A DNA stretch of 64,000 nucleotides from Methanobacteriota archaeon (GCA_018650165.1 JABIGM010000050.1:46119-110118), one strand, 5' to 3'; positions 4,419 to 23,476 are shown, counted from the stretch's first letter. Translations and numbers: made by a program. Notes: a model not told the origin generated them from the letters alone.

Positions 4419-4445
4419 TCTCTCTATTTCCGATCATTAATTTAA

Positions 4446-5621: not shown

Positions 5622-5641
5622 GTCTTTTTTACCTCCTTAGG

Positions 5642-7222: not shown

Positions 7223-7376
7223 TTAGTGTCACCTCGAATTCGGCTACGAGCAAACGCAACATCTTTCGCAACTTCGGACCATTCATATAGATTCTCGTGG
7301 CTTGCTCAATAATAATATTGGAATATCATTCCCGATGAAGCGGTATCATTCCCTATTTGAGCACAAATAACGCCGA

Positions 7377-8303: not shown

Positions 8304-8307
8304 TTTA

Positions 8308-9252: not shown

Positions 9253-12053
9253 TACTTACCATCCTCCATTTTTCTTTGCTCGATTTTAGTCCAAGCACTA
9301 CCTGCAAGGCCAAGCCCCTCTAATTGTTCAGAGGTAGGCCTCACTGCGATTTTCCAATCTCCATCTTGGTCCTCGGGGGGAACGGTTGGGTCAAATCCAA
9401 ATAATACTCCATTGATGTAAGGGTCGGTATCTTCTGAACGCTGACGGCGACTATCTCTTCCTCCGTGTTGTGAAGAACGCTGAACAATTTTTTGCTGTAA
9501 CTCAGAGAAATCTAAACGTGGCGTAGGTAGGTCTTGGGCCTCAGCAATGTCTTCTCTCTTCATTTTCTTTGCAATTGCTGCCCAAACCTTGTCTGGTGTC
9601 AAAGGTAAATCATTGATTCTGATTCCAATTGCATCGTAAACTGCATTTACCACTGCAGGGAGAATTGGTAGAAGTGGGCCTTCTCCTGCTTCTTTAGCCC
9701 CGAATGGCCCTTCTGGGTCACATGATTCAATTATTATTGGAGTTACATTTGGCATTTCGTGAACACTTGGGATCTTGTAATCAAGTAAATTTGGATTCTG
9801 TAGATGACCGGTTCTCCCATACACCATTTGTTCTGAAAGCACCTGACCCAGACCCATATGGCAAGAACCGATGATTTGCCCTTCTACTGCGAGTGGATTC
9901 AGTGCTTTACCACAATCATGAGCGGCCCAAACATCTGTACATTTGATGAGTCCTGTTTCAACATCAACATCAACTTCGGCAACATAGGCTGAAAACGAAT
10001 ATGCAGGAGCAAGGCCCGCTGCTGCACCTTTGTGAACTCCTCCCATCGGCGGTGTTCTGTACGCACCACTAGCAATTAGCGCACCTTTGTCCTCTTGTGA
10101 TTTATGCAATGCCTCGAGATAAGAAACTCCAATCGCGGGGTCTCTTTTACTGTAAATTCTCCTGTCGTTCAGTATCAAATATTCCGCCGGCATATCCAAT
10201 ATGCCACTCGCCGCATCCACCAATTGCTCACGAATTTCGAGTGCTGCACTGATGGCAGCATTCGCATTCATGAATGTGACTCGAGATGAATATGAGCCTA
10301 AATCAACTGGACTAGTATCGCTTTCATGGGAGCGAACATGTATCATTTCCAATGGGAGTGCTAACACTTCTGCAACCACTTGGGCTATAGCAGTAGTAGA
10401 CCCTTGTCCAATATCTGCAGCACCGGTATGAACTGTAACGCCTCCATCCATATCAATCTGGATATGTACGGTCGCATGAGGGAATTTATTTGGATCCCAA
10501 TGAATAGGAAGTCCAGACCCTGATATGAAGAAACCACATCCGATTCCGATTCCCTTTCCTAAAGGTAATTTCCTGAACTTAGAATCCCACTGGCTACCTT
10601 CGCGCACTCGCTCTAATGCTTGCCGCATACCATTCGATGTAATTCTGAATCCAGTAATTGTTTTTGAATGTGGAGGTAATAAATTTGCTAACCGTAAATC
10701 GATAGGATCTACTTGTAATTTTTCAGCCAAATCATCCATACCTACTTCGATTGCACATCTAGTGTTCACAGCACCATGGCCGCGCATTGCTCCACTAGCC
10801 GGTTTGTTTGTCCAAACACGAGCACCGGTATAATGGAAGGAACCTAACTCGTATGGAGCGGTTGCTAAAACACCATTGTAGTAAGAAGTGACGTGGCCAA
10901 AAGACGCAAATCCGCCTCCGTCAATCAAAGCATCAATCTCAAATCCGGAAATTCTCGCATCCTCATCTGCAAACATTTGTACTTCGATGTGAGAGGGATG
11001 GCGTCCACGATTTACCCAAAAGACCTCTTCTCTGTCAAAAGTAATTCTAACTGGGCGCCCCGCTTTTCTGGCTAAAATCGCCGCACACATTTCATGCGGG
11101 AAAGGATCTGACTTTCCACCAAATCCACCGCCAACAAATGTTCGTATCACGTTGACCTGGTGCATTGGGACATCTAGAACAGTCGCTAGAGCTCTGTGTG
11201 CATAGTGCGGTACTTGCTGGGGGGTGTACAGTTGTAGACGCCCGTTTGAATCCCAATGAGCAACAACAGCATGGGGTTCGGTGAAGCCATGATTGACACC
11301 CATGAATTTCCATTTGCCATGGTGTGTTGCTCTGGCTTGTTCTAATTTGGAACGGTCACCAAACTCTTGGAAAACTCTTTTTTGAACATTGGTGGAGCCA
11401 ATGTGATATTGCCCGCGCCAATGGATTGGATCATCAACGTCCAATAATCCCTTTTTGGGGTCATGAACCGCATCTAGAACTTCATATTCCACTTCGATTA
11501 ATGCCGCCGCTTCACGAGCAGTTGGTTCGTCAATTGCAGCAACACAAGCCACAAGGTCCCCTACATGCCTGACTTTTTCAACAGCCATTGCGTGTTCATC
11601 TTTTGTCACCGGTAGTACACCAAAGCGCTGCGGTGCATCAGCACCTGTAGACACCGCTAAAACGCCCGGTAGTGCTTCGGCTTTGGAAGTATCAATACTC
11701 TTAACCTTAGCATAATGATGAGGTGAACGAACAATTCTTCCAATTATTTCATTTGGCAATCGCACATCATCACCATACCATGCCTGGCCCGTAACTTTGG
11801 CATTACCATCAACTAAAGGAGTTCTTTTTCCAACAGATGTTCCAGTCCTGTATTTATCATGAAGATGTTGACCTGCCGGCTGTGATTCATTTCCGCCTTC
11901 AACTTCTGGGATGAAATCCATGTCTCTATCGGCCATTTCGGGCCTTGAACCACCTGAACCGGGAGGATTAAATTTAATTTTACCTGCAACACGCTTTCCA
12001 TCAACACGAACATCAGTGTTGCTTCCAGGTTGTTGAACATAGCCATCAGTCAT
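9252..12053 (-). CDS. Molybdenum hydroxylase large (CoxL/XdhA-like) molybdopterin-binding subunit with N- and C-terminal extensions.
   Basis: a/b hammerhead region 'GKRTPLVDGNAKVTGQAWYGDD', 'GGGFGGKSD', 'GQGSTTAIAQVVAEVL', 'NPLAVEGQIIGSCHMGLGQVL'. There is about 120 aa of extra C-terminal sequence. Confidence 0.85.
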   Translation of the reverse strand: MTDGYVQQPGSNTDVRVDGKRVAGKIKFNPPGSGGSRPEMADRDMDFIPEVEGGNESQPAGQHLHDKYRTGTSVGKRTPLVDGNAKVTGQAWYGDDVRLPNEIIGRIVRSPHHYAKVKSIDTSKAEALPGVLAVSTGADAPQRFGVLPVTKDEHAMAVEKVRHVGDLVACVAAIDEPTAREAAALIEVEYEVLDAVHDPKKGLLDVDDPIHWRGQYHIGSTNVQKRVFQEFGDRSKLEQARATHHGKWKFMGVNHGFTEPHAVVAHWDSNGRLQLYTPQQVPHYAHRALATVLDVPMHQVNVIRTFVGGGFGGKSDPFPHEMCAAILARKAGRPVRITFDREEVFWVNRGRHPSHIEVQMFADEDARISGFEIDALIDGGGFASFGHVTSYYNGVLATAPYELGSFHYTGARVWTNKPASGAMRGHGAVNTRCAIEVGMDDLAEKLQVDPIDLRLANLLPPHSKTITGFRITSNGMRQALERVREGSQWDSKFRKLPLGKGIGIGCGFFISGSGLPIHWDPNKFPHATVHIQIDMDGGVTVHTGAADIGQGSTTAIAQVVAEVLALPLEMIHVRSHESDTSPVDLGSYSSRVTFMNANAAISAALEIREQLVDAASGILDMPAEYLILNDRRIYSKRDPAIGVSYLEALHKSQEDKGALIASGAYRTPPMGGVHKGAAAGLAPAYSFSAYVAEVDVDVETGLIKCTDVWAAHDCGKALNPLAVEGQIIGSCHMGLGQVLSEQMVYGRTGHLQNPNLLDYKIPSVHEMPNVTPIIIESCDPEGPFGAKEAGEGPLLPILPAVVNAVYDAIGIRINDLPLTPDKVWAAIAKKMKREDIAEAQDLPTPRLDFSELQQKIVQRSSQHGGRDSRRQRSEDTDPYINGVLFGFDPTVPPEDQDGDWKIAVRPTSEQLEGLGLAGSAWTKIEQRKMEDGK

Positions 12054-12070
12054 TGTAACACCTCATTTGA

Positions 12071-12658
12071 CTAATTTGGACCTGAAGGATGGGGGTCAGA
12101 GTGGGCTGAACTCGCAGGCTTTGCCGGTGAAGCATCTCCTCTATGGATCTCAGCCGCTGCTTGGATTGATTGAATTATTTGCTGATATCCTGTACAGCGA
12201 CAAAGATTACCTTCGATAGCAGTTGATATCTCTGCATCGGTAGGATTAGGATTCTTATCGAGCAGTGCTTGAGAGGAAATTAAGAAACCAGGCGTACAAA
12301 AGCCACATTGGGAACCTCCATGCTCTGCAAAACATTGCTGAATCGGTGCGAGGTGAGCGCCATCAGCAAGCCCTTCAACTGTCGTGATTGTGCTGCCTTG
12401 TACATCTTGAGCCATGGTAAGGCAAGATAAACGTGGTTGGCCATCTACCATCACTGCGCAGCAACCACATGTCCCCATGTCACAACCGCGCTTCACTCCG
12501 AGGCATCCAACTTTATCTCTAAGGACATCTAGTAAGACTGCATTAGAAGGGGCTAACACCTCTTGAGGTTGCCCATTAACCTCTGAGTTCCAAACTTTAG
12601 TATGTGCCGCTGGAATCATAGAAACATGCTCATCACCTACCATCTGAGACACCAACAA
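12071..12658 (-). CDS. Molybdenum hydroxylase [2Fe-2S] small (CoxS-like) subunit. The start is probably the internal Met at about 12619.
   Basis: 'CDMGTCGCCAVMVDGQPRLSCLTMA' is the plant-type 2Fe-2S site. 'GSQCGFCTPGFLIS...LCRCTGYQQI' is the second 2Fe-2S site. Confidence 0.85.
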   Translation of the reverse strand: MLVSQMVGDEHVSMIPAAHTKVWNSEVNGQPQEVLAPSNAVLLDVLRDKVGCLGVKRGCDMGTCGCCAVMVDGQPRLSCLTMAQDVQGSTITTVEGLADGAHLAPIQQCFAEHGGSQCGFCTPGFLISSQALLDKNPNPTDAEISTAIEGNLCRCTGYQQIIQSIQAAAEIHRGDASPAKPASSAHSDPHPSGPN

Positions 12659-12738: not shown

Positions 12739-14214
12739 TTATTTTCTTGATGAAACTACCGTGTAATCTTCTGACCCGGCCTTTGGATTATCCCAATCAT
12801 CATCTCCCGGCAATACTAATCCATCTCCAATTGCTACCAAATCAAATGCTAGTTTAATTTGGTCGCTACAAAGTTTACTCCAATCGAAGGATGGGTCTCT
12901 CCATTTCATCCACAATCGCATTCTTCTCCACGCGATTGTTCCTCTAGAATAGAGTTTCATCTGTAATTTACCAGCCATAGGCATCCACCATAGCATCAAC
13001 GGGAATACCGCATAAGCGGGAAGTGAAAACAGAAATTCGAGAGTTACACTATATTCTGCAAACTGGGCAATAGGACTTGTATCTGAAAGTAAAGCCCAGG
13101 TGAATACACCTGCTGCAAGCATCCACCAGATTGGATAAACTACAAATGCAGTATAGAGTTTCAAAGCACCTCGGCTAGATTCTTTGAATCTTGGCCCAAA
13201 TATTCTATCACCTGAAAATACCATTAGGTAGGGTGGAATTGAACCAATTATTGCACTCAAGGTAACAAACCCAACCATAAATGACCATGCAAATAGCCAC
13301 CACCAAATCGATATCAGAAATCCTTTACTCGTTACAGATTTTGGTCGAGAATCAACATGTCTCGGTTTGAGATTATAGGAATCAAGTAGTTCGACGTGCT
13401 CTCTAGTGCGCTGTTCTAACGCCTTACTTTTTGCAGCATCGTTTAGTGCCAGCCATTCCCAGGCTGCTCTGACTCTTCTTGCACCAAGTATGTCTTCTCC
13501 ATAACTAGAGCGCTGTTTTAGATCGGGGGTTTTACGCAAGCGTTCAGCGCGAATAATTGAGCGAGCATTCCAAATTAATTCCCTATCATTCCAGTTCTCT
13601 CTTGAAAGTGATGCACGCGATATCTCACCTGAAATTATTTCGCTCAATCCTTCTACTGAGCCACTAATTTCTATAGGCCTTTCAACTGTCAGAGCGACCC
13701 GTTCACGGAAGTAAGACTTGCGGCTATAATGAATCCCGACTGGAATTACTACAGGCTTTTCATCACCAGCTAATTCATTGGCGCGTAATGCAATTTTCGC
13801 TGCACAATCTCGAATCGCTTTTGCACGGGGAAGGTCGTGAGATTCGCCCTCTGGAAATACAACTACACTTGACCCTGCAGCGATTTGTGATGCGATTACT
13901 TCTAATTCCTCGTCATCATCTACCACTCCGTCGAATTTGACCTGGTCACCTCTTAGTAGCCCCTTGGTCAACATTTTATCAAACAAGCCACCTGGGTGCC
14001 AAGATACGATAATTGAGCCTCTGTCTTTTGAAATGTTATCTGCATCTATTATGCTTATTTCACGAAACCACGTGGCCATCAAAACTCGACTAAACCAGTT
14101 TTGCAGCCCCATGATTGGTCCTGTGCGGCTGAGGCTTTCACTTCTCGCCCGTTTTAGCAATAAATAAGAGGGTTCAAACAGTATTGCCGGTTCGAGCGAA
14201 TCAGAGTACAACAA
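12739..14214 (-). CDS. Membrane-bound acyltransferase of the PlsC/GPAT family: an N-terminal acyltransferase domain and a C-terminal multi-TM domain.
   Basis: 'SWHPGGLFD' is HX4-5D-like and 'VVVFPEGESH' is FPEG-like motif III. The C-terminal 180 aa are hydrophobic. Confidence 0.5.
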   Translation of the reverse strand: MLYSDSLEPAILFEPSYLLLKRARSESLSRTGPIMGLQNWFSRVLMATWFREISIIDADNISKDRGSIIVSWHPGGLFDKMLTKGLLRGDQVKFDGVVDDDEELEVIASQIAAGSSVVVFPEGESHDLPRAKAIRDCAAKIALRANELAGDEKPVVIPVGIHYSRKSYFRERVALTVERPIEISGSVEGLSEIISGEISRASLSRENWNDRELIWNARSIIRAERLRKTPDLKQRSSYGEDILGARRVRAAWEWLALNDAAKSKALEQRTREHVELLDSYNLKPRHVDSRPKSVTSKGFLISIWWWLFAWSFMVGFVTLSAIIGSIPPYLMVFSGDRIFGPRFKESSRGALKLYTAFVVYPIWWMLAAGVFTWALLSDTSPIAQFAEYSVTLEFLFSLPAYAVFPLMLWWMPMAGKLQMKLYSRGTIAWRRMRLWMKWRDPSFDWSKLCSDQIKLAFDLVAIGDGLVLPGDDDWDNPKAGSEDYTVVSSRK

Positions 14215-14250: not shown

Positions 14251-16185
14251 ATGAACAACTACAAGCAAATTTTCAGTTTATTCGGAATTGCAATTCTTTT
14301 GGCGCCCTTGGCTGTTGCGACTGTTCCAGTTTCAACATCAACTAATGGTGATGAAGAGCCATTAGGATGGTGGACTGAGACAACTGTTGACCGAAATAAA
14401 AACAAGGTTGGAGACATGGTTGAGCTTCATATCGACAATCCTATTTTCTTAGATGAAGAAAATACATTACCTTTGATTATCGACTTTCACTATACACCTG
14501 GCCAAGATGAAATAGACATGCTAAGGGTTAGTGTAGATTATCAACATCAATTCATTCTCCACGGAATCGATGCACTAGCAGGAAGAGTCCCAGTAACTGA
14601 ATTGCTTACACTGAGAGACCTTCCGGGAGTTGTAATGGTCGAATTAGATGGTGTCCTCACTATTGCAAATGCAGATGCTCGTGCTGGTCATGGCGTTGAT
14701 ATGGCATTCGAAGAAACCGGATATGATGGCTCGGGAACAACTGTTGCTATTATTGACACAGGCCTAGATGGCAATCATACCAGTATTGATGATCAAGACG
14801 ATGACCCGGTGACTGATGACCCTAAAATTCTGGCATTCTATGATGCAGTTGCTAATGCTGGTAATACCAATGGCACTGATTTCCCATACGATGACCATGG
14901 ACACGGTTCACACTGTGGAGGAACAACTGCAGGAACTGGAGCTCCTACCTACGAGCATGTAGGGATGGCACCTCAAGCCCATCTAGTTGGCGTCAAAGTT
15001 CTCGATGGAGGTGGCTCAGGGTCTTTCGCTGGAGTTATGGCGGGGATGCAATGGACTATCGATACAATGCACCAATACAATACAAGAGCCGCTTCTATGA
15101 GCCTAGGTGGCCCAGGTGGAATCGAATGGACTTCATCAGAAGAAGACAGTGTTAATCGCCAAGCCAATGAAATGGTACGCGCCGGTATTGCGCTATTTAT
15201 TGCAGCCGGTAATACTGCATTTAGTGCCCAAATCGGAACTCCTGGTTCGGCTGAAGATGTAATCACCGTTGGTGCTTTAGACAAGAATACTGCTATTGCA
15301 ATTTATTCGAGCCAAGGCCCAACTGAAGAAGGGCGTGTCAAACCTAACATCGCATACATGGGTAGTGACATTATGTCTGTTGCAGCAAATACTGGCGACC
15401 AATACACCGGTATGAGCGGTACAAGTATGGCTACACCGGGAGCCGCTGGTGTTGGAGCATTGATGTTACAGGCGAACCCCGATTTATCTCCATTCGATAT
15501 TAGAAATATTATGCAAGAAACCGCTACATATCGACAATGTCATTACATGGGTGCAAATGAGCCTTGTCCTGAAGATTTGATCCCTAAAAATCGGCAAAAC
15601 AATGTTTATGGCCACGGCCACGTCAATGCTCTTGAATCGGTAATAGAGGCTGCTGAATATCAGCAGCAATGGAACTTTGATCGCAATATTACCCTGAATG
15701 TAAGTAATTCATTGAATTCAAATGGCCATGTATACTTAGGCCCTGGAGATTCGATTGAGATAAGATTGAACCAAGGTGTAGACACCGTCCAATGGATGAG
15801 CAATGATTTGAGAGATTCATGGTCTAACATTCATTCATACGACCACGGCAGCACGGTTATTCTCGAATATGATGAAATTGTTCACGAACTCGAACATCTC
15901 CCCGGAATTATGCTAGAAGGCAATCACACACTATCGATGAGAGGACTAGAGGGGACTAGTTCAAGTCCTTTGATTTCTATCGACATTATGTTAGGTGAAA
16001 ATATCCCAGTAGAAGATCCCGCAGAAGGTTCAACGAATTTCGTGCTATATGGTTCTGTAATTGCGGCCATATTACTTACAATAATCATTCTTGCGGCGAC
16101 ATTAACCAATAGGAATGAATCTGAATTCAACACTAGTGACGACTCTGATATCCAAGAAGTGGTGGATGCTGAAATAATCTCCTAG
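14251..16185 (+). CDS. Subtilisin-like (S8, halolysin-like) serine protease with a signal peptide, a C-terminal TM anchor and an acidic tail.
   Basis: Catalytic triad motifs 'VAIIDTGLD' (Asp), 'HGHGSHCGGTTAG' (His), 'GMSGTSMATPGAAG' (Ser). Signal peptide 'ILLAPLAVATVP'. C-terminal TM 'VLYGSVIAAILLTIIILAATL'. Confidence 0.85.
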   Translation: MNNYKQIFSLFGIAILLAPLAVATVPVSTSTNGDEEPLGWWTETTVDRNKNKVGDMVELHIDNPIFLDEENTLPLIIDFHYTPGQDEIDMLRVSVDYQHQFILHGIDALAGRVPVTELLTLRDLPGVVMVELDGVLTIANADARAGHGVDMAFEETGYDGSGTTVAIIDTGLDGNHTSIDDQDDDPVTDDPKILAFYDAVANAGNTNGTDFPYDDHGHGSHCGGTTAGTGAPTYEHVGMAPQAHLVGVKVLDGGGSGSFAGVMAGMQWTIDTMHQYNTRAASMSLGGPGGIEWTSSEEDSVNRQANEMVRAGIALFIAAGNTAFSAQIGTPGSAEDVITVGALDKNTAIAIYSSQGPTEEGRVKPNIAYMGSDIMSVAANTGDQYTGMSGTSMATPGAAGVGALMLQANPDLSPFDIRNIMQETATYRQCHYMGANEPCPEDLIPKNRQNNVYGHGHVNALESVIEAAEYQQQWNFDRNITLNVSNSLNSNGHVYLGPGDSIEIRLNQGVDTVQWMSNDLRDSWSNIHSYDHGSTVILEYDEIVHELEHLPGIMLEGNHTLSMRGLEGTSSSPLISIDIMLGENIPVEDPAEGSTNFVLYGSVIAAILLTIIILAATLTNRNESEFNTSDDSDIQEVVDAEIIS

Positions 16186-16245
16186 AATCGTAATTTCTCC
16201 ATGTTTACCGGCTCAACATTGAAAAGCCGTTATGCAAAATCATAG

Positions 16246-19200
16246 ATGAGAAATATGTCTAATCTACCATCTCGGCCTCAAAGGCCGACAGGAAAACAGA
16301 ATCTTTCTGCACGAATTGGAAACCTTTCTGCAAATGCAATCCTTGCACCTCCGGTGACTATGGGGACTGTTGGACAAGCACCAGTAAATGCGGTAAACTC
16401 TGGAATGCAAAAATTTGCTCAATTGATTCTATTTGCAATTGCAATGATTGCGATATGGGCAGGACTTCTCTCCATTGCCTTTGGTGGCGATGAACAAACC
16501 CAAATGAATTTCCTAGTCCTTGGAATTGGAGGAATTTTATCAGGTGTTTTGGCGATTAGCCTAGTCGAGTTTCAAGTTAGGAAGGGGGGAAATGAATTAC
16601 AAAATGTCCACGATTATATGCTTGGAGTAGCATTTTTCTTCTTAGCAGTGGGCACTCTATGGGGCACTAGATGGCTTATTGGGTTCTTAGCGGGGCAAGA
16701 GGTACATTGGCTTATTCCCGAGGGAACAGACCCCTTGGATAGTGGCTGGATTCCATCTGCAAATGCAATATATTTGCAAATGGCTGCGACTTTAGCACTT
16801 GCTTTGGCACAGACATTCTACCTCATGCGACTGAAAGGAGTAACTACCTTTGGATGGTCAGTAACAACATTTACTCCTCTTGTAGTAGCCCTTATTGGTT
16901 CAAGCATCTGGATGGAGTGGTCAGATAACATAGTATCATGGGAGTTAGGTATCGCAATGATTTCATTAGCCTCGCTTTCGATGTGGCTATCTCTACGTGC
17001 AAATAGTGGAATAATATTCTCGGTAGTAGCTGTAACCTCAGGCCTATTACCGATGCTCTACGAATATAATAACGAAGATGTAGGGTCGGGCGGAGCTCTC
17101 TCGCTTTTGGTATTCATCATTGCAGTACAGGGAATTCTAGCAGCAGATAGAAGGCTCCGGCAAGATTTGATGCAATGGACTTCAGCTTTATTAGTTGGAG
17201 AAGTTGTACTAGCAATGATACTTGCACGAGATGCAGATTTCGAATTGATTCTTGGACCAATTCGTCAATCGGAACTTGGATCTCTTGAACCATATCTCAC
17301 ATTACAAGTTGGTTTATGGATGACAGTACTAGTTGCATATTTCCCTGCAACTCTCAAGCGGAGAATTCCTTACATGCCAATAGGCCTAGCAGGCTCTCTA
17401 TTCATAATCAGTTCATCCGCAGGCTTAATCCCATGGATTGTAACTTTGGTAATGCTACCGTACCTATTGGTGATATCCAAGGTCACAAGACAGTGGGTGG
17501 CCAATTGTACAATGATCGCTACTGGATTCTCCTTCTTCATACAATCACACTGGATGGGAGGATTTGAGCCAGGTTGGTTGGAAGCAACAATTCTGATTGT
17601 AGTCTTGGCTAGTGGGGAAGTTGGAAGACAAAAAGGCCACCTCTCCGACTGGGCACACTTCGTCACTTTGGGACTTTTAGTAATTTCAAAATCCGTTCTA
17701 TTTGGAGACGACCCGTATGTACCTTGGGCGATATTCATCTACGCTGTTGTTTCATCATACATGATGATGGTCAAATCCGAAGCAAATGGAAGCAAGCAAG
17801 ATGCTTTCGAAGCTTCATCCGCTACTGCTGGCTCGATGGTCATTGCTGTAATCCTCTCTTTATTCGATAGACTGGAAGTCCCACTCCCCTCAAATATTGC
17901 TGAAAATCTAGAAGGTTTCAATGTCACATTAGCATTAGTTGGTTTGATTGTATATGCATCGATGCGTAAATTCAGAACCATTGAATTAGACCTAGGTGTG
18001 ATGTTTAATTGGGCTGAAGGAAAAAGAAAATCAATGATGCCGGTATTTGATACTACCACTAATTCATGGGTGGTTGATAATGGAGGCGCATCTAGTGAGC
18101 CTGCTGATTATTCATGGGGGCCACTGGGGCGAATGAGTCTTATTGGACCAATGATTCTCTTCACGGTAGCACTTACTGCAGTAGGGCCTACTAACTTAGC
18201 AGAAAATATCATCTGGACCCTCCTATTGATCATTCCAATTGGAATAATTGTAAAGGAAGTTCTAGACGAAGAGCGGGCTTCTTCAACGGGAAGAATGATT
18301 GCCACATTCACAATGATTGCTGTGGCCGCACCTATGGCCTTAAGTTTGAACTTGGCAAGAGGAGAAACTGACGGTTTGATTTATTCTACTATTCTCTTTG
18401 ATTTGATGCTACTTGCTGGGCCATTAGGAGTATCGGTTTTGCTATCTAAAAAGGGTCTCAATGATGATTCGCTTAATCGTACAGCGGACATTGCCACTTT
18501 GATGGGGCTATTGGTCCTAGGATTATTCGATACCAGTGGTGGATTATTGTTCCTAACTATGTACATACTAGTATTCAGTAGAGCTGTGAAACATAGAGTT
18601 AATCTTGTATTATGCATAGCACCAATTGCTATACTATTATTCGGATTTGATTCATATGGAGATAGATTCGTTTCAGATGGTGCAATAGTTGGAGATATCT
18701 TATCCAAATTAGATATTATTTCTTACGACCCAAGTGAAATAACAATACTTGGGTTGAGTAGATTCTCATTCTTTGTTATGGCAACTACAAGTCTAATCAT
18801 ATTGGCACGAGGTGTGTTAGACCGTCAATATGGACTTGATGCAGGTGCCATTGAAGCGCCGATGACAGTACCTGCATTCTGGCTTACTCTTGGAATGTTT
18901 GGTGTATTACCCGAAGCGAGTTGGTTACTGTTAACAATGACAATATTAGTTACAATATACGCTTGGCTTGTTGGAAGAATTGAGATTATTCCATGGATAC
19001 CAACCTTGGCGTTAATTTCATTCCTTATTGGATTCACAAATGATTCTAATTTCAGTCATTTCGATGGAGGAGATGTTTTTGCTCACAGTTTATTGGGAAC
19101 TGGTTTATTCGCATTAACCCTCAATCAATTAAGTTCCAAAGGCTGGCTTTACAAATATGCTGATGAAGCGATTGATGATCAACTTGCCACGGCTACAATT

Positions 19201-20280
19201 TTCAATTTGGTCACTATACAGAATCGTGAACGTCTGACTTCTGTTTTGCGTATTTGGACAATTGTAGGCCTCACCTTTTCGTGGACTGCGTTCAAGGGCA
19301 TTGGTACGATGATTGGAGCAATATGGGCAACTTATGATACATTTGTAAATGGTCAAAAGTATGCGATATTAGCTATGCCATTACTACATGCATTTGCAGT
19401 TTGGAATATGCTAGAACAATTCGAACAAAATGGAAACGTACAGGATGCTTTGGTCGGAACTGTTCTGATTCTAAGTGGTCTATTGTTTACCCTAATTGCT
19501 TCTAAGGCCGAAATAGCATGGAATTGGGAAATATTTGATTGGAGCCATGAGAGTGAATACTACGGCTGGATAGATAGAGTCGGCCAATTAGGTATCACTT
19601 ACTTCCTAATTGGAATAACATGGGCGATAGGTGAGGCTGACCAAGAAGGTATGCTATGGGCTATTTGGGCTGTATTCCTATCCGGAGTTGCAATTCAAGG
19701 ATTCAGGGATGAAACTGAAACACCTTGGCGCAGAGGCATTGGCTCAATTGGCTGTATCTTTGCACTGTTCATGCTATCATTTACCTTTGAAACTGACCTT
19801 TACCAATCCATCAATTGGATGTTCATGGGTGTTGTCGCACTAGGGTTTGGTTTTGCATATATCTCTCGAATGGGCGAGGTTTCAACACTGTATGATCAAT
19901 CCTATACAGATGCTAAAGATGCAATCCAAATCGATTCTAATGATGGTGACAAATACGTAACAATACCTGAACCAATCACTGAAGAAACTGAAGAAATAGA
20001 GGAAGTAAACGAAGAGACTGTTGAAGATGAAGACGATCTTAGTGAAGATGAACTCGAGCAGGTGCTGGATGAAGTAGGTGAAGACGAAGATACACACACA
20101 GATGGAGAACCTGCGCCGCAATTACAGACTCCATTGCATTACAATTATGATTTGCAACTAGACCAAACGGTTCTTCATGCGATTCAGTCATCCCTTGCAG
20201 CAACACCGCATGCAGGATTTAAACCGGTTGTTTCAATTGCGAAAAATGGGAATTTGAAAATTGATTTCATACCGCTTTGA
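16246..20280 (+). CDS. Very large integral membrane protein (1344 aa; I estimate about 30 predicted TM helices) with a C-terminal acidic low-complexity tail. Function unknown.
   Basis: Hydrophobic helices run continuously from about aa 60 to 1230. The tail is 'EPITEETEEIEEVNEETVEDEDDLSEDELEQVLDEVGEDED'. I recognised no enzymatic motif. Confidence 0.6.
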   Translation: MRNMSNLPSRPQRPTGKQNLSARIGNLSANAILAPPVTMGTVGQAPVNAVNSGMQKFAQLILFAIAMIAIWAGLLSIAFGGDEQTQMNFLVLGIGGILSGVLAISLVEFQVRKGGNELQNVHDYMLGVAFFFLAVGTLWGTRWLIGFLAGQEVHWLIPEGTDPLDSGWIPSANAIYLQMAATLALALAQTFYLMRLKGVTTFGWSVTTFTPLVVALIGSSIWMEWSDNIVSWELGIAMISLASLSMWLSLRANSGIIFSVVAVTSGLLPMLYEYNNEDVGSGGALSLLVFIIAVQGILAADRRLRQDLMQWTSALLVGEVVLAMILARDADFELILGPIRQSELGSLEPYLTLQVGLWMTVLVAYFPATLKRRIPYMPIGLAGSLFIISSSAGLIPWIVTLVMLPYLLVISKVTRQWVANCTMIATGFSFFIQSHWMGGFEPGWLEATILIVVLASGEVGRQKGHLSDWAHFVTLGLLVISKSVLFGDDPYVPWAIFIYAVVSSYMMMVKSEANGSKQDAFEASSATAGSMVIAVILSLFDRLEVPLPSNIAENLEGFNVTLALVGLIVYASMRKFRTIELDLGVMFNWAEGKRKSMMPVFDTTTNSWVVDNGGASSEPADYSWGPLGRMSLIGPMILFTVALTAVGPTNLAENIIWTLLLIIPIGIIVKEVLDEERASSTGRMIATFTMIAVAAPMALSLNLARGETDGLIYSTILFDLMLLAGPLGVSVLLSKKGLNDDSLNRTADIATLMGLLVLGLFDTSGGLLFLTMYILVFSRAVKHRVNLVLCIAPIAILLFGFDSYGDRFVSDGAIVGDILSKLDIISYDPSEITILGLSRFSFFVMATTSLIILARGVLDRQYGLDAGAIEAPMTVPAFWLTLGMFGVLPEASWLLLTMTILVTIYAWLVGRIEIIPWIPTLALISFLIGFTNDSNFSHFDGGDVFAHSLLGTGLFALTLNQLSSKGWLYKYADEAIDDQLATATIFNLVTIQNRERLTSVLRIWTIVGLTFSWTAFKGIGTMIGAIWATYDTFVNGQKYAILAMPLLHAFAVWNMLEQFEQNGNVQDALVGTVLILSGLLFTLIASKAEIAWNWEIFDWSHESEYYGWIDRVGQLGITYFLIGITWAIGEADQEGMLWAIWAVFLSGVAIQGFRDETETPWRRGIGSIGCIFALFMLSFTFETDLYQSINWMFMGVVALGFGFAYISRMGEVSTLYDQSYTDAKDAIQIDSNDGDKYVTIPEPITEETEEIEEVNEETVEDEDDLSEDELEQVLDEVGEDEDTHTDGEPAPQLQTPLHYNYDLQLDQTVLHAIQSSLAATPHAGFKPVVSIAKNGNLKIDFIPL

Positions 20281-20282
20281 AT

Positions 20283-21506
20283 CTAATCTTGCTCAGCAGG
20301 ATAAGCGCCCCAATATGCTTCACGTGATGCTTGATTCGCAGCCATACAGGAATTGACATCACTACTACGAGAAGGTAGTGTAGAACTACCATTTAGATGA
20401 TTGATCATCGGTTCGATATTTGACCAATTTAGAACACCCCACCCAACTTGAGTGCATGGTAAAATAGGACTAATCGGAGTTGTACCCCCTGTTGGGTCCC
20501 AGGTTGCTGCGGAGGGGTACCATCCTGAAAGATTCAAGGCATTGCGGATATCTGAATTAGAAATCTCAACATCTCCATCCACGAGATATCCATCTCTGCC
20601 CCCGGAACTTGAATCATTGAATTCGGCTCTGAGTGTGGTCATGATGTGGCCCAAAAATCCGGCTGTTCGTGGTGTTGCAAAGGATGTTCCCGAAGTTTCA
20701 TGATAGCCATCTGTATCCTGGTGATTGGGTAATGATTGTGTCCAATCTGACGCCATATCTGGGTAAGAACCAGACATTGTCTCTTTTTGGTCGTCATCCC
20801 CCTCTGCATATCCTGAAACTCCAATTGACCATGGCGGGCCTGCAGTGGCATCTTGTACTGCGGGTGAAGGTGAGTTATCAGCAGCGCCTGTGTGAATCTT
20901 GTGATTTTCGACCACAGCGATCTTGGTAGCATCTTCGATTCCAGGCACAGGTACTGAACCAGGTGCTCCAAATGAAGTTGTAATGACATCTACCATTGGG
21001 TGGGTTCCAGCAGTAATAACGGCATTTTCACTAAAGCCTTCAACAAAGAAAATTATTGCATCGGGGTCGGCATCAAGAACGGCCCCTGTTACTGCAGTTC
21101 CATGACCATCATCCGGGTCATCAAGAATCATCGTGGGTGTACCACCATCAGGAGATTGTGCAAATATTCGTGTTCCAGGGAAATATACAATATCGCTTGC
21201 AGTAATCGTATCCCAACAAGTTGTGCGATCGTTATCAACACGCTCTTGATAGGTTCCTTGGTTAGTTAAATTACAAATTATAGTTGTTCCCATGGCCTCA
21301 ACAAACCAGTCTGGGAGAATCTCTTCGGTTTGGAAATGGTCGTGATAAGGATTTATTCCAGTATCGATAGGAGCTATCACGGTATAGGGTCTGAAGTTAT
21401 CCCCATTCGCCATTTCTGTCTCTTTCGGTACGACTTCTTCTTCGCTGAAGCACCCTGCAAGACTAGCACTTGCCATCAAGATGGCTAGCAGTAAGGCGCG
21501 AGACAT
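20283..21506 (-). CDS. S8-family serine peptidase, a lipoprotein-like secreted protein.
   Basis: 'LAILMASASLAGC' is a signal peptide plus lipobox-like Cys. 'VIAPIDTGIN' (Asp), 'DGHGTAVTGAV' (His), 'ETSGTSFATPRTAG' (Ser). Confidence 0.75.
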   Translation of the reverse strand: MSRALLLAILMASASLAGCFSEEEVVPKETEMANGDNFRPYTVIAPIDTGINPYHDHFQTEEILPDWFVEAMGTTIICNLTNQGTYQERVDNDRTTCWDTITASDIVYFPGTRIFAQSPDGGTPTMILDDPDDGHGTAVTGAVLDADPDAIIFFVEGFSENAVITAGTHPMVDVITTSFGAPGSVPVPGIEDATKIAVVENHKIHTGAADNSPSPAVQDATAGPPWSIGVSGYAEGDDDQKETMSGSYPDMASDWTQSLPNHQDTDGYHETSGTSFATPRTAGFLGHIMTTLRAEFNDSSSGGRDGYLVDGDVEISNSDIRNALNLSGWYPSAATWDPTGGTTPISPILPCTQVGWGVLNWSNIEPMINHLNGSSTLPSRSSDVNSCMAANQASREAYWGAYPAEQD

Positions 21507-21577: not shown

Positions 21578-22111
21578 ATGGCGGGAGAAATGGTTTGGAT
21601 TGATCTCGAAATGACGGGATTAAATCTTGATAGTGAATCTATTATTGAAATTGCCACAATTGTCACTGATGGTGAATTGAATATTACTGCCATGGGCCCA
21701 AATCTGGCAATCAAAGTAAGCGAAGAGTTGCTGGGAAATATGGATGAGTGGAACACAACTCATCACACAGCCTCTGGACTTGTTGATAGAATAAGGAGCG
21801 AAGGTGTTAGTTTAGAAGAAGCGATTAAGCAAACTTGTGCCTTTCTAAAAGAAAATATAGATACAGGTGCTTCTCCACTCTGTGGCAATTCAATTCATAC
21901 TGATAGAGCATTTTTGGCAAAAGAAATGCCTGAAATTCTAGACCTGTTACACTATCGTATTGTCGATGTATCTTCAATCAAAGAGTTATCCAATAGATGG
22001 TATCCAAATAATCCAAGATATGACAAAAAAGAAGCACACCGTGCTTTGGATGATATTATCGAATCTATCGAAGAACTTCGCCACTACAGGGCTACTTTAT
22101 TCAGAGATTAA
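21578..22111 (+). CDS. orn: Oligoribonuclease (DEDDh 3'-5' exonuclease).
   Basis: 'MVWIDLEMTGL' is Exo I with the DxE. 'GNSIHTDRAFL' and 'HRALDDIIESI' are Exo II/III with His and Asp. 177 aa is the typical Orn size. Confidence 0.8.
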   Translation: MAGEMVWIDLEMTGLNLDSESIIEIATIVTDGELNITAMGPNLAIKVSEELLGNMDEWNTTHHTASGLVDRIRSEGVSLEEAIKQTCAFLKENIDTGASPLCGNSIHTDRAFLAKEMPEILDLLHYRIVDVSSIKELSNRWYPNNPRYDKKEAHRALDDIIESIEELRHYRATLFRD

Positions 22112-22904
22112 TTCCTTTGAACCCGGCAATAATTTCTGCGATTACTGCAATTGCAATCTCTTCGGGGCTCTCTGCCCCAATCTCAAGTCCAATTGGGCAG
22201 TTCACCCGGTCTAACCTCTCTTGAGTAATCCCTGCATCGAGAGCGACTTCAGAGAAAGTTTTCCATTTTGATTTTGAGCCTATTACTCCTAATCTCCCCG
22301 AATAACCTGCAAATAGTAAGCCGAGTAATCTTTCTTCATCTTCTTTCCAGTCGTGACCTAGAAGCAAAATATCACTAAATCTAGCCAAGGAATCGGTGTT
22401 TTCAGCCATCAAGAAATCTTTGGGACAGGAGTGATGTGACTCTTTAGCTCCTTCAATCGTGGCAAATTCCGCTCTCGAATCCTGAACTGAGAAACTCCAA
22501 TTCAAAGGACCACATGCTTCTGCAATCGCCTTAGCACAATGACCTCCTCCCATCAGTAGAATATGTGGCATCGGCATCAGGATCTCCATTGCAACGGTAA
22601 CGTGGCCGCCACATAAACTATCCAGAGGTGTTACCTCATAGCCCTTGGCTCCTTTATTCAATCCAAATGTCACGACCTTACCGCATGGCTTGATGGCATT
22701 TTCCAGCATCTCTCTAAGTTGTGATATCACTTTCAGTTCAAGTCCAGCACCGCCAACGGTACCTACTATGCCATGATTATTCAATGCTAATTTAGCACCT
22801 TCTTTTCCGGGTACTGAACCTGTAGTTGAAATCACAGTTGCAATTGCAACCCCTCGATTTTTGGAAAGTTCATCAAGAGACCAGTGCAAAATAGATGCCG
22901 TCAT
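22101..22904 (-). CDS. xdhC: XdhC/CoxI-family molybdenum-cofactor insertion chaperone.
   Basis: N-terminal XdhC_CoxI region 'VAIATVISTTGSVPGKEGAKL', then a Rossmann-like 'ILLMGGGHCAKAIAEA'. It overlaps mocA by 4 nt. Confidence 0.7.
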   Translation of the reverse strand: MTASILHWSLDELSKNRGVAIATVISTTGSVPGKEGAKLALNNHGIVGTVGGAGLELKVISQLREMLENAIKPCGKVVTFGLNKGAKGYEVTPLDSLCGGHVTVAMEILMPMPHILLMGGGHCAKAIAEACGPLNWSFSVQDSRAEFATIEGAKESHHSCPKDFLMAENTDSLARFSDILLLGHDWKEDEERLLGLLFAGYSGRLGVIGSKSKWKTFSEVALDAGITQERLDRVNCPIGLEIGAESPEEIAIAVIAEIIAGFKGINL

Positions 22905-23476
22905 TGCAATGCCTCCAAATCGGCGGGAGTGTCTATGTTCATATGCACGCCGGGAGCAGAAATCCTAGTGATTTCTAATTGTTCACGTAATGAAGACTCT
23001 TTACTGAGGGCAAGGACCTTATCAATTTCACACAGTAAAAGTGGATGGCCACTTGGGTCTGGAGATGCATTAGAATGGTTCTCCAATAATGCGGGAATAG
23101 TTTCTTTATTCCAACCACATCTATCAACCGGAGAAATCAAAACGCGCCGAGGAGTTCTGCCTAATTCGCTCAGAAGTGAAAGTAATCCGACCTGTAAGGT
23201 GCCTGTCCTGCCATCTTCAGGATTTGGATTTACAACAATTGTTGCATCTTTGCATGAGAGCATCACATCGATTTGTAATTCAGAGCGAGTTACAACGATA
23301 ATAGGTTTGCAACCACTCTCCTGAAGGAGACGTACTGCCCTGCCAACCAAGGTTTCACCATTCCATTCGACCAATGCTTTAGGTTGTCCCAATCGAGATG
23401 ACGACCCCGCAGCCAGAACAATGGCTGGTACACACTTGGCCATTAGATCACAGGTCCTTGGTAATCTCACGCCCAA
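22901..23476 (-). CDS. mocA: MobA-like NTP transferase, a candidate molybdenum cofactor cytidylyltransferase. The start is probably the internal 'MAKCVPAIVLAAG' at about 23443.
   Basis: 'AIVLAAGSSSRLGQPKAL' is the nucleotidyl-transferase glycine-rich loop of the MobA/MocA family. It is adjacent to xdhC. Confidence 0.65.
   Translation of the reverse strand: MGVRLPRTCDLMAKCVPAIVLAAGSSSRLGQPKALVEWNGETLVGRAVRLLQESGCKPIIVVTRSELQIDVMLSCKDATIVVNPNPEDGRTGTLQVGLLSLLSELGRTPRRVLISPVDRCGWNKETIPALLENHSNASPDPSGHPLLLCEIDKVLALSKESSLREQLEITRISAPGVHMNIDTPADLEALQ

What the first reader, a model, noticed from the sequence alone, without database searches (positions are those of the whole stretch)
14251..21506. 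Two S8 subtilases bracketing a 1344-aa multi-TM membrane protein (I estimate about 30 helices)
A membrane-anchored halolysin-like protease (14251..16185, +) is followed after 60 bp by a 1344-aa protein made almost entirely of TM helices, with a long Glu/Asp tail. A second, lipoprotein-type S8 peptidase lies convergently 3 bp after its stop.

A polytopic protein of this size, with no recognisable transporter or enzyme motif, flanked by two extracytoplasmic proteases is not a configuration I can assign to a described system. Possible roles for the membrane protein:
- peptide or oligopeptide uptake coupled to extracellular proteolysis, which would fit a protein-degrading planktonic lifestyle;
- a membrane scaffold or anchor for the proteases;
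- a giant sensor.
Basis: partly seen in the sequence, partly recalled or inferred. Interest (0 to 1): 0.6.

Follow-up and report, generated by a model that had tools for sequence, protein, structure and literature searches.

The report
Giant 38-helix archaeal membrane protein
Marine Group II archaea (Poseidoniales) carry a conserved, unannotated gene for a membrane protein that crosses the membrane about 38 times and matches no known fold; the two proteases beside it are mostly inherited neighbours, not proven partners.

Summary
The three ORFs sit at the stated coordinates:
- A pre-pro S8 subtilase with a C-terminal membrane anchor (S8a).
- A 1344-aa polytopic protein (BIG), 60 bp downstream.
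- A convergent lipobox S8 peptidase (S8b), 2 bp after BIG's stop.

BIG has about 38 transmembrane helices, not about 30. Both ends are cytoplasmic, and almost nothing is exposed outside the cell. It ends in an acidic cytoplasmic linker and a conserved 45-aa domain.

BIG resolves into no known family. Pfam, NCBIfam, PADLOC and PDB sequence searches found nothing. A confident AlphaFold model of helices 1-18 (pTM 0.86) has no significant PDB match; its nearest shapes are soluble alpha-solenoids. The family is confined to Poseidoniales and close Thermoplasmatota, and every named member is "hypothetical".

The protease link is weaker than it looks. All three genes lie in an ancient syntenic slot inside a xanthine-dehydrogenase/cox-like cluster. 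In other lineages a CD36-like protein and an HTH_10 regulator occupy S8a's position. Where BIG lies outside this slot (about 10 distinct contexts), S8a is beside it in only one.

My best reading, at low confidence, is a structural membrane platform with at most a facultative protease partnership. The protein family is new, but its function is unproven.

The parts
14251..16185 (+). S8a: pre-pro subtilase (644 aa). It has an N-terminal signal-like segment, a conserved pro-region, a catalytic domain (D169/H218/S392), a conserved C-terminal extension, a single C-terminal TM anchor (about aa 597-618) and a conserved acidic cytoplasmic tail (DSDIQEVV, aa 631-638).
   Evidence: Pfam PF00082 at E 5e-49. 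Ortholog alignment A3. Motif positions. The best NCBIfam hit is mycosin TIGR03921 at 72.5 bits, far below its 278.75 cut-off.
16186..16245 (.). 60-bp spacer between S8a and BIG, compatible with co-transcription. No obvious oligo-T terminator is visible.
   Evidence: Same-strand S8a-BIG spacers are 76 bp or less in 33 of 34 loci (one outlier at 416 bp; my own start-codon calls).
16246..20280 (+). BIG: 1344-aa protein with about 38 TM helices, N-in/C-in. It founds an unannotated family specific to Poseidoniales. The database twin P0001 starts 3 codons later (1341 aa).
16366..17985 (+). BIG domain D1 (aa 41-580, TM1-18), the most conserved core of the family. It contains YFPATLKRRIPYMPIGLAGS (aa 365-384) and the family-invariant R373, P375, R415 and W417.
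   Evidence: AlphaFold2 model with pLDDT 89.7 and pTM 0.86. No PDB match at E<=1e-3; the nearest shapes are alpha-solenoids. Invariant residues.
17974..18132 (+). Largest cytoplasmic loop of BIG (aa 577-629). It has an amphipathic helix and a beta-hairpin (PVFD...W..V).
18133..19872 (+). BIG TM19-38 (aa 630-1209). It includes short Gly/Pro-rich helices, the conserved Asp residues D719, D748 and D762, and the cytoplasmic motif FRDETETPWRRG (aa 1153-1164).
   Evidence: This region is modelled only within the full-length model (pLDDT about 80, overall pTM 0.54).
19873..20139 (+). Cytoplasmic acidic linker of BIG (aa 1210-1298). The measured span, aa 1210-1300, holds 33 D/E and 2 K/R.
   Evidence: The weak Snf7 hit (E 0.018) is compositional.
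20140..20277 (+). C-terminal domain of BIG, about 45 aa (beta-alpha-beta-beta pattern; ...TPHxGFKPVV..GN..IDF). It is conserved even in the most distant family members and lost only in one clade of 1236-1263 aa.
20283..21506 (-). S8b: lipobox (LAGC, Cys19) S8 peptidase of 407 aa with motifs D48/H135/S275. It is convergent with BIG, with 2 bp between the stop codons.
   Evidence: Orthologs lie downstream of BIG in 31 of 60 in-slot loci, including distant lineages.
12739..14214 (-). LPLAT/PlsC-like acyltransferase with a C-terminal membrane region (491-aa ORF; the real start is probably about 34 codons later). It is transcribed divergently from S8a and is a conserved member of the same syntenic block.
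   Evidence: The window copy scores 15.5 bits on PF01553, below the cut-off; the ortholog in L155 scores 53.9 bits. It is 56% identical to the L002 ortholog. It is present in 43 of 60 in-slot loci.
8308..12658 (-). Structural genes of a xanthine-dehydrogenase/cox-like molybdoenzyme: FAD_binding_5, MoCoBD large subunit and 2Fe-2S small subunit. They form the upstream border of the slot.
21578..23476 (.). Downstream border of the slot: RNase T-like exonuclease (+), XdhC (-) and a MobA-like nucleotidyltransferase (-).
   Evidence: These genes are conserved next to BIG in most lineages.

Best explanation
**What is shown.** The 1344-aa ORF is a real, order-wide conserved gene of Poseidoniales (Marine Group II archaea).
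- It encodes an integral membrane protein of about 38 helices.
- Both termini are cytoplasmic, and the outside loops are at most 35 residues.
- A cytoplasmic acidic linker leads to a small conserved C-terminal domain.
- It belongs to no described family.
- The confidently modelled first 18 helices have no significant match among solved structures. Their nearest shapes are alpha-solenoids.

**What is inferred.** The protein is a long, tightly packed array of transmembrane hairpins, a "membrane solenoid". It acts as a structural platform in the membrane rather than as a transporter or enzyme. The working surface is probably the cytoplasmic face, with its Arg/Trp/Pro-rich motifs, and the C-terminal domain, which recruit partners.

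**The proteases.** The two S8 genes lie beside BIG mainly because all three sit in an ancient syntenic slot inside an XDH/cox-like gene cluster. At most, the membrane-anchored S8a is a facultative client whose single-pass anchor and conserved acidic tail dock on the platform. S8b is an accessory neighbour.
For: **Reality and range of the family**
- 160 word-index hits, all about 1240-1390 aa.
- 103 species-level loci, all from Poseidoniales-type MAGs.
- Only 194 representative clusters among 1.84 billion proteins.
- Every name given by a source is "hypothetical protein".

**Topology**
- 38 AlphaFold helices. K+R is 22.8 on the N-terminal side and 4.7 on the other.

**No known family**
-.

**Fold**
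- D1 model with pLDDT 89.7 and pTM 0.86.
- Foldseek against the PDB gave no hit at E<=1e-3.
- The best shapes are a designed circular tandem-repeat protein (7rdr, TMq 0.33), VPS35 (5f0k, TMt 0.47) and TPR proteins.
- Only one membrane protein appeared among the 50 listed matches, ND5, at TM 0.19. The full-length model behaved the same way.

**Packing rather than a polar pathway**
- Of 101 positions at least 85% conserved across 260 sequences, G 23, L 13, W 12 and P 12 dominate.
- No His or Cys is conserved.
- Only R142 and D719 are conserved ionisable residues deep in helices.

**Synteny**
- In-slot loci: S8a adjacent in 53 of 60, S8b in 31 of 60.
- Out-of-slot loci: S8a in 1 of 23. S8b in 3 of 23, and those three loci are type C in gene order.
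- A CD36-like protein plus HTH_10 replace S8a in other lineages.
- BIG lies directly between Fer2 and XdhC in a cluster named Thalassarchaeaceae.

**For a facultative S8a link**
- Operon-like spacers of 76 bp or less in 33 of 34 same-strand loci.
- The genes stay together through an inversion of S8a and a reshuffle to S8b|S8a|BIG in L128.
- One relocated BIG->S8a pair sits in an unrelated context, L090, with S8a 55% identical.
- S8a has a conserved cytoplasmic tail motif.
Against: - No direct functional evidence exists. The platform role is inferred from the absence of other signatures.
The solenoid-like packing rests only on which PDB shapes Foldseek ranked first.
- My own covariation analysis was too noisy to confirm it (effective sequence number about 60).
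- TM19-38 could only be searched within the lower-confidence full-length model. This region has short Gly/Pro-rich helices and conserved Asp residues (D719, D748, D762), so a transport-like module there is not excluded.
- The S8a membrane anchor is poorly conserved in sequence. That argues against a specific helix-helix docking interface.
Confidence: 0.3

Rival explanations
1. Dedicated protease-platform system. BIG is the obligate membrane partner of S8a and S8b. It positions, activates or regulates the surface subtilases, loosely as the ESX membrane complex holds mycosin.
For: - S8a is immediately adjacent to BIG in 53 of 60 in-slot loci.
- The genes remain together in four arrangements: S8a->BIG, S8a<-|->BIG, S8b|S8a|BIG and BIG->S8a.
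- Same-strand spacers are 76 bp or less in 33 of 34 loci.
- S8a has a C-terminal TM anchor and a conserved cytoplasmic tail.
- S8b is found downstream of BIG even in lineages whose BIG scores about a tenth of the window's self-score.
Against: - In about 10 distinct contexts outside the slot, S8a is beside BIG in only one, and no S8a lies within 8 kb in the others.
- Whole lineages keep BIG in the same slot with no S8a at all (types B and C).
- S8a is far better conserved than BIG at the same divergence: 55% identity against BIG scoring about a tenth of self.
- The anchor helix is not conserved.
- BIG exposes almost nothing to the outside, where the proteases work.
Confidence: 0.15
2. Uptake conduit. 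BIG is a very large transporter or channel of a new type. It takes up what lineage-specific surface modules deliver: peptides from S8a and S8b in MGIIa, lipids from the CD36-like protein in other lineages.
For: - The gene just upstream of BIG is an extracytoplasmic substrate-handling protein in both arrangements: S8a, or a CD36-family protein (PF01130, 47.6-50.9 bits).
- TM19-38 contains short Gly/Pro-rich helices and conserved Asp residues D719, D748 and D762.
- An M14 carboxypeptidase lies nearby in one out-of-slot clade.
Against: - No transporter family or fold matched.
- No internal or inverted repeat was found.
- Conserved residues are Gly, Leu, Trp and Pro, with only two buried ionisable residues in 38 helices.
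- The nearest shapes are solenoids, which suggests sequential rather than bundle packing.
- No ATPase or binding-protein gene is consistently adjacent.
Confidence: 0.17
3. Partner of its genomic hosts. BIG serves membrane-lipid homeostasis together with the adjacent LPLAT acyltransferase, or it tethers the cytoplasmic XDH/cox-like molybdoenzyme to the membrane.
For: - The oldest and most widespread adjacency of BIG is with the XDH small subunit and XdhC. It is present in types A, A', B and C.
- The acyltransferase is in 43 of 60 in-slot loci.
- Several cytoplasmic-face motifs are strongly conserved, including the invariant R373 and R415 and the R1162-R1163 pair.
Against: - BIG is on the opposite strand from the XDH genes. 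Unrelated genes (RNase T, the proteases) separate it from them.
- BIG occurs away from the XDH cluster and the acyltransferase in about 10 contexts.
- No His or Cys is conserved that could hold a haem or a metal centre.
Confidence: 0.1
4. Piezo-like force or curvature sensor. A long array of TM helices senses membrane tension and gates a pore formed by the last helices of an oligomer.
For: - About 38 TM helices with both termini inside, the same count as Piezo (count; the Piezo comparison is from my own knowledge).
- An elongated, solenoid-like array is suggested.
- An MscS-type channel gene lies divergently next to BIG in one clade.
Against: - No Piezo family reached E<=1 in the Pfam scan, and no Piezo structure is among the 50 listed Foldseek matches.
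- No detectable 4-helix repeat unit.
- No cap-like extracellular domain.
- The MscS neighbour is confined to one clade.
Confidence: 0.06

Closest known systems
Soluble alpha-solenoid or tandem-repeat proteins (VPS35 N-terminal region 5f0k, LGN TPR 3sf4, designed circular tandem-repeat protein 7rdr)
   Same: They are the nearest shapes to the confident model of TM1-18. Foldseek probabilities are 0.93-1.00, with TM-score up to 0.39 (query) and 0.47 (target). This implies consecutive antiparallel helices stacked side by side.
   Different: They are soluble proteins. Their E-values are not significant (>=0.018), identity is about 10% and rmsd is 14-15 A. BIG's helices are hydrophobic and membrane-spanning, with a strong positive-inside bias. 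This is a geometric analogy, not homology.
Piezo mechanosensitive channels
   Same: About 38 transmembrane helices in one chain, both termini cytoplasmic, and a presumed extended helix array (the Piezo features are from my own knowledge).
   Different: BIG is about half the length. It shows no sequence or fold match and no detectable repeating 4-helix unit. It has no extracellular cap, and it is archaeal and confined to one order.
Mycosin (MycP) with the ESX/type VII secretion membrane complex
   Same: A subtilase with a C-terminal membrane anchor is encoded next to a large polytopic membrane protein. Mycosin TIGR03921 is the best NCBIfam hit of S8a.
   Different: The score is 72.5 bits against a cut-off of 278.75. 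No EccB/C/D/E-like genes or FtsK-type ATPase lie nearby. BIG is unrelated to EccD.
Halolysins (haloarchaeal extracellular subtilases such as SptA; PMC3158780)
   Same: An archaeal S8 protease with a pro-region and a C-terminal extension beyond the catalytic domain.
   Different: S8a ends in a transmembrane anchor and a cytoplasmic tail rather than being released. Its N-terminus has no twin-arginine motif. It forms a separate ortholog group found in Poseidoniales-type contigs.
Complex I antiporter-like subunit ND5/NuoL
   Same: It is the only membrane protein among the 50 listed Foldseek matches of D1 (7r4d_L).
   Different: TM-score 0.19, probability 0.41, E 0.1. This is not a meaningful match.

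Membership tests
Peptidase S8 (subtilases) - S8a, 14251-16185 | Pfam PF00082 above the gathering score, with the Asp/His/Ser catalytic motifs in order | tested here: met
   167.5 bits against a cut-off of 21.8. D169 (IDTG), H218 (HGHGSH) and S392 (GTSMATP) are invariant in 7 orthologs.
Peptidase S8 (subtilases) - S8b, 20283-21506 | Pfam PF00082 above the gathering score, with the Asp/His/Ser motifs | tested here: met
   32.6 bits against a cut-off of 21.8. D48 (IDTG), H135 (GHGTA) and S275 (GTSFATP) are present, with the lipobox LAGC at residues 16-19.
Type VII secretion mycosin (TIGR03921) | Score at or above the curated cut-off, with ESX core genes (EccB/C/D/E) nearby | tested here: not met
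   72.5 bits against 278.75. The neighbours are XDH subunits, an acyltransferase, RNase T and XdhC.
Known transporter superfamilies (MFS, APC, RND/MMPL, OPT, ABC permeases) | A sequence-profile match to the family | tested here: not met
   No Pfam or NCBIfam family at E<=1 for BIG or for 7 distant members. A PDB sequence profile found 0 hits at E<=10.
Known transporter superfamilies (MFS, APC, RND/MMPL, OPT, ABC permeases) | A fold match, or internal structural repeats | tested here: not met
Piezo | About 38 TM helices | tested here: met
   38 helices with a consistent positive-inside alternation. This is a resemblance only.
Piezo | Homology or fold similarity, with repeated 4-TM units | tested here: not met
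   No Piezo family reached E<=1 in Pfam. No Piezo chain is among the 50 listed Foldseek matches. hhalign between 160-aa slices reached at most 13.7% probability.
Anti-phage defence systems (PADLOC) | A match of the components to defence-system models | tested here: not met
   BIG matched 0 families. S8a matched only the generic 'subtilase' model.
LPLAT/PlsC acyltransferases (neighbour 12739-14214) | Pfam PF01553 above the gathering score | tested here: inconclusive
   The window copy scores 15.5 bits, below the cut-off of 23. The homolog in L155 (phmmer score 235 to the window copy) scores 53.9 bits. An FPEG motif is visible in the sequence.
Halolysin-type secreted archaeal subtilases | Twin-arginine signal and release into the medium (from my own knowledge of SptA-type halolysins) | tested here: not met
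   The N-terminus MNNYKQIFSLFGIAILLAPLAVA has no RR motif. The protein ends in a hydrophobic anchor plus a cytoplasmic tail.

The most novel reading that the evidence does not exclude
BIG is a new class of membrane machine: a membrane-embedded alpha-solenoid of 19 TM hairpins that forms an arc or ring in the lipid bilayer. It would serve as the common membrane module onto which lineage-specific surface acquisition modules dock, the anchored subtilase S8a in MGIIa and a CD36-like lipid-handling protein in other Poseidoniales. That would be a previously unseen nutrient-acquisition architecture in one of the most abundant archaeal groups in the surface ocean.
Probability: 0.12. Interest if true: 0.85.

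Novelty: categorically new. Interest (0 to 1): 0.55.

Why it matters
Poseidoniales are among the most abundant archaea of the surface ocean and have no cultured representative. Their cell envelope and their way of acquiring nutrients are largely inferred from annotated genes.

A single-chain protein with about 38 transmembrane helices is very unusual for a prokaryote. This one is conserved across the order, has no annotation, and gives a confident model with no structural relative among solved structures.

If it is a structural membrane solenoid, it would be a new architectural principle for membrane proteins. If it cooperates with the neighbouring surface enzymes, it would point to how these archaea couple extracellular hydrolysis or lipid capture to the membrane.

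For annotation, the result is practical. The "two proteases bracketing a giant membrane protein" pattern should not be read as an operon-level system without expression or interaction data. Most of it is inherited synteny.

Tried and rejected
- **Internal repeats.** Self-BLAST found only the identity hit. hhalign between all non-overlapping 160-aa slices of the family alignment reached at most 13.7% probability. I therefore rejected a duplicated-transporter or repeat origin detectable in sequence.
- **Sequence families.** Pfam, NCBIfam and PADLOC found nothing on BIG, and Pfam found nothing on 7 distant members. The Snf7 and CPP1 hits at E 0.3-0.8 are compositional.
- **PDB profile search.** 0 hits at E<=10.
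- **Mean-field DCA.** I ran it on D1 with 260 sequences (effective number about 60) to test sequential-neighbour packing. It showed a slight excess of couplings between helices i and i+2 (15 of 80 against 10% expected) but was dominated by noise. The result is inconclusive.
- **First synteny reading.** I first concluded that S8b was not conserved and that S8a adjacency was clade-specific. The metagenome scan revised this: both belong to one ancient slot.
- **The 443-aa and 303-aa neighbours in L004.** I tested whether they were diverged copies of the window's acyltransferase and S8b. They are not.
- **Redox anchor for the XDH-type enzyme.** I considered this and downgraded it, because no His or Cys is conserved.
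- **Literature.** A survey of Poseidoniales-specific protein families (PMC9258230) lists such families but does not describe this protein in its main text or its supplements held as text (one file cut when stored). Keyword searches found nothing on it.
- **Promoter and terminator reading.** The 60-bp spacer gave no clear signal.


Full report
**1. Observation**

The ORF map reproduces the finding exactly.

- S8a: 14251-16185 (+), 644 aa.
- BIG: 16246-20280 (+), 1344 aa.
- S8b: 20283-21506 (-), 407 aa.

S8a matches Pfam Peptidase_S8 at E 5e-49. S8b matches weakly but above the gathering score (32.6 bits against 21.8). Both keep the Asp/His/Ser motifs: S8a has D169/H218/S392 and S8b has D48/H135/S275.

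S8a has an N-terminal signal-like segment, a conserved pro-region and C-terminal extension, one C-terminal hydrophobic anchor, and a short acidic tail. S8b starts with a lipobox (LAGC). The S8a-BIG gap is 60 bp. The BIG-S8b gap is 2 bp, not 3.

Composition, neighbours and database names place the window in a Poseidoniales (Marine Group II) archaeon. The 100%-identical database protein is named "Euryarchaeota archaeon", and relatives are named Poseidoniales or Poseidoniaceae.

**2. The large protein**

*Helix count and topology.* Alignment-averaged hydropathy and the AlphaFold2 secondary structure both give about 38 membrane helices. Numbering loops alternately gives 22.8 Lys+Arg on the N-terminal side and 4.7 on the other. 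This is a strong positive-inside signal that holds over the whole chain. Both termini are therefore cytoplasmic.

- The largest outside loops are 20-35 residues.
- The largest cytoplasmic loop is aa 577-629 and contains a beta-hairpin.
- After TM38 comes an acidic linker, with 33 D/E and 2 K/R in aa 1210-1300.
- The chain ends in a 45-aa domain with a beta-alpha-beta-beta pattern.
- That domain is recognisable even in the most distant relatives. It is missing only in one clade of 1236-1263 aa.

*Known families.* None matched. Pfam, NCBIfam and PADLOC gave nothing for BIG, and Pfam gave nothing for seven distant members. A profile of 20 homologues finds no PDB chain even at E<=10. No internal repeat is detectable.

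*Structure models.*

| Model | pLDDT | pTM |
|---|---|---|
| aa 41-1220 (20 sequences) | 77.9 | 0.54 |
| D1, aa 41-580, TM1-18 (48 sequences) | 89.7 | 0.86 |

Foldseek against the PDB returned no hit at E<=1e-3 for D1. Its top matches are soluble helical-repeat proteins: the designed circular tandem-repeat protein 7rdr, the VPS35 solenoid 5f0k (TMt 0.47) and TPR proteins. The only membrane protein among the 50 listed matches is ND5, at TM 0.19. The full-length model behaves the same way, and its single hit below 1e-3 is a soluble solenoid at TM 0.11. BFVD gives nothing.

I infer that consecutive TM hairpins stack side by side like a solenoid, rather than forming a transporter-type bundle. My own covariation test was too noisy to decide.

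*Conservation.* Across 260 sequences (effective number about 60), 101 positions are at least 85% conserved. They are dominated by Gly 23, Leu 13, Trp 12 and Pro 12. No His or Cys is conserved. Only R142 and D719 are conserved ionisable residues deep in helices.

The most striking motifs lie on the cytoplasmic face:
- KRRIPYMPIGLAGS
- SKVTRQWVAN
- FRDETETPWRRG

This pattern fits tight helix packing and interfacial anchoring better than a polar translocation path. However, a small cluster of conserved Asp residues (D719, D748, D762) in TM22-24 leaves room for a functional site in the less well modelled second half.

*Distribution.*
- 160 word-index hits.
- 103 species-level genome loci, all Poseidoniales-type MAGs.
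- Only 194 representative clusters among 1.84 billion proteins.
- The most distant members are named Ca. Thalassarchaeaceae, Ca. Thermoplasmatota or Euryarchaeota archaeon.
- Every name given is "hypothetical protein".

A published survey of lineage-specific archaeal families notes Poseidoniales-specific modules. It does not describe this protein in its main text or the supplements held as text (PMC9258230).

**3. Is the protease bracket meaningful?**

I called ORFs in 178 related loci and labelled neighbours with phmmer. The three genes lie in one ancient slot inside an XDH/cox-like gene cluster. In the window that cluster comprises:
- FAD subunit, large subunit and 2Fe-2S subunit at 8308-12658 (-).
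- MoxR, DUF58 and DUF4350 further upstream.
- XdhC and a MobA-like gene at 22101-23476 (-).

Slot variants:

| Type | Gene order | Example loci |
|---|---|---|
| A (window clade) | Fer2 \| acyltransferase \| S8a -> BIG \| [S8b] \| RNase T \| XdhC | window |
| A' (BIG about 33% identical) | As A, but S8a inverted | L066, L071 |
| L128 | S8b \| S8a \| BIG \| RNase T \| XdhC | L128 |
| L102 | Fer2 \| S8a \| BIG \| 329-aa ORF \| RNase T \| XdhC (no acyltransferase) | L102 |
| B | Fer2 \| BIG \| RNase T \| XdhC, no protease | L100, L101 |
| Thalassarchaeaceae-named | Fer2 \| BIG \| XdhC | L091, L092 |
| C | Fer2 \| [acyltransferase] \| CD36-like \| HTH_10 \| BIG \| [S8b] \| XdhC | L104, L127, L155, L149 |

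In type C, a CD36-family protein (PF01130, 47.6-50.9 bits) and a regulator sit where S8a sits in type A.

Counts among the 83 loci with full flanks:

| Context | Loci | S8a adjacent | S8b adjacent |
|---|---|---|---|
| In slot | 60 | 53 | 31 |
| Out of slot | 23 (about 10 distinct contexts) | 1 (L090) | 3 |

The three out-of-slot S8b cases are type C in gene order.

L090 is the one relocated pair. There a 55%-identical S8a ortholog follows BIG on the same strand in an unrelated neighbourhood. No S8a lies within 8 kb in the other out-of-slot loci.

The adjacency is therefore ancient and real, but it is mostly explained by block synteny. The points in favour of some coupling are:
- The operon-like spacers, 76 bp or less in 33 of 34 same-strand loci.
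- Persistence through an inversion and a reshuffle.
- The L090 pair.
- The conserved cytoplasmic tail of S8a.

**4. Mechanism**

*Shown:* a conserved membrane protein of about 38 helices with cytoplasmic termini, minimal outside exposure, a new fold for TM1-18 and no family assignment.

*Inferred, confidence about 0.3:* a structural membrane platform built as a TM-hairpin array. Its cytoplasmic face and C-terminal domain bind partners. S8a is at most a facultative client.

*Rivals:*

| Explanation | Confidence |
|---|---|
| Obligate protease-platform system | 0.15 |
| New-type uptake conduit fed by S8a or the CD36-like surface module | 0.17 |
| Partner of the acyltransferase or the XDH enzyme | 0.10 |
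| Piezo-like tension sensor | 0.06 |

The remaining probability is for something not considered.

**5. Comparison with known systems**

- The nearest shapes are soluble alpha-solenoids. This is analogy only.
- The helix count equals that of Piezo, but neither sequence, fold nor repeat structure matches.
- The pairing of an anchored subtilase with a polytopic neighbour recalls mycosin and ESX. However, S8a is far below the mycosin cut-off, and no ESX core genes are present.
- S8a is halolysin-like only in being an archaeal S8 enzyme with a C-terminal extension.

**6. Verdict**

BIG is unassignable and unusual, but the "system" is largely synteny.
- The protein family and the D1 fold appear new. 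The function is unknown, with a low-confidence structural reading.

Noticed in passing
L104:2680-5187 (+), L149:1471-5184 (+), L094:1016-3493 (+), L155:2221-5322 (+): Large archaeal proteins (825-1237 aa) match the CD36 family (PF01130; L104 and L149 score 47.6-50.9 bits against a cut-off of 26.5, over only the first ~130 of 463 profile positions). They sit immediately upstream of an HTH_10 regulator and BIG, where S8a sits in the window's clade. To my knowledge CD36-family proteins are rarely reported in prokaryotes.
   Followed up: partly
window 12739-14214 (-): A 491-aa ORF is transcribed divergently from S8a. It has an LPLAT/PlsC-type acyltransferase N-domain (FPEG motif) and a C-terminal membrane region. 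The window copy is below the Pfam cut-off, but the L155 ortholog scores 53.9 bits. It is conserved in 43 of 60 in-slot loci. It may be relevant to the proposed bacterial-type ester lipids of MGII (that link is from my own knowledge). The real start is probably about 34 codons later, where the alignment to the L002 ortholog's first residue begins.
   Followed up: partly
window 3096-12658 (-) and 22101-23476 (-): An XDH/cox-like molybdoenzyme cluster is split in two. On one side are DUF58, MoxR AAA_3, DUF4350, an unknown gene, FAD_binding_5, the MoCoBD large subunit and the 2Fe-2S subunit. On the other are XdhC and a MobA-like transferase. The acyltransferase/S8a/BIG/S8b/RNase T island lies between them, and this split is conserved across Poseidoniales.
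   Followed up: partly
window 16141-16182 (S8a tail) and about 20050-20090 (BIG tail): S8a orthologs share a cytoplasmic C-terminal motif, D-x-D-I-x-E-V-V-x-A-E. BIG's acidic linker contains a similar acidic-amphipathic stretch (DELEQVLDEVGED). This could be a shared short linear motif or just composition.
   Followed up: no
L090:14088-18929 (+): A 1613-aa protein lies downstream of the relocated BIG->S8a pair. It ends in ...VPGFGILLTMTSLLGAALILAGRRDE, which looks like a PGF-CTERM archaeosortase sorting signal (recognised from my own knowledge).
   Followed up: no
L036:2125-3294 (-) and L036:8629-10824 (+): In one clade where BIG has left the slot, an MscS-type mechanosensitive channel gene lies divergently next to BIG. 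An M14 carboxypeptidase lies three genes downstream.
   Followed up: no
L099:10206-13733 (-): A 1175-aa protein with a PNGase F C-terminal domain and thrombospondin type 3 repeats is convergent with a distant BIG homologue.
   Followed up: no
L062:7833-11941 (+): BIG is split into two overlapping ORFs (644 and 758 aa) in this MAG. This is probably a frameshift or an assembly error, not a natural split.
   Followed up: no
window 16246-16257: The start codon of BIG is ambiguous. The identical database protein (P0001, 1341 aa) starts three codons later (MSNLPSRP...).
   Followed up: no
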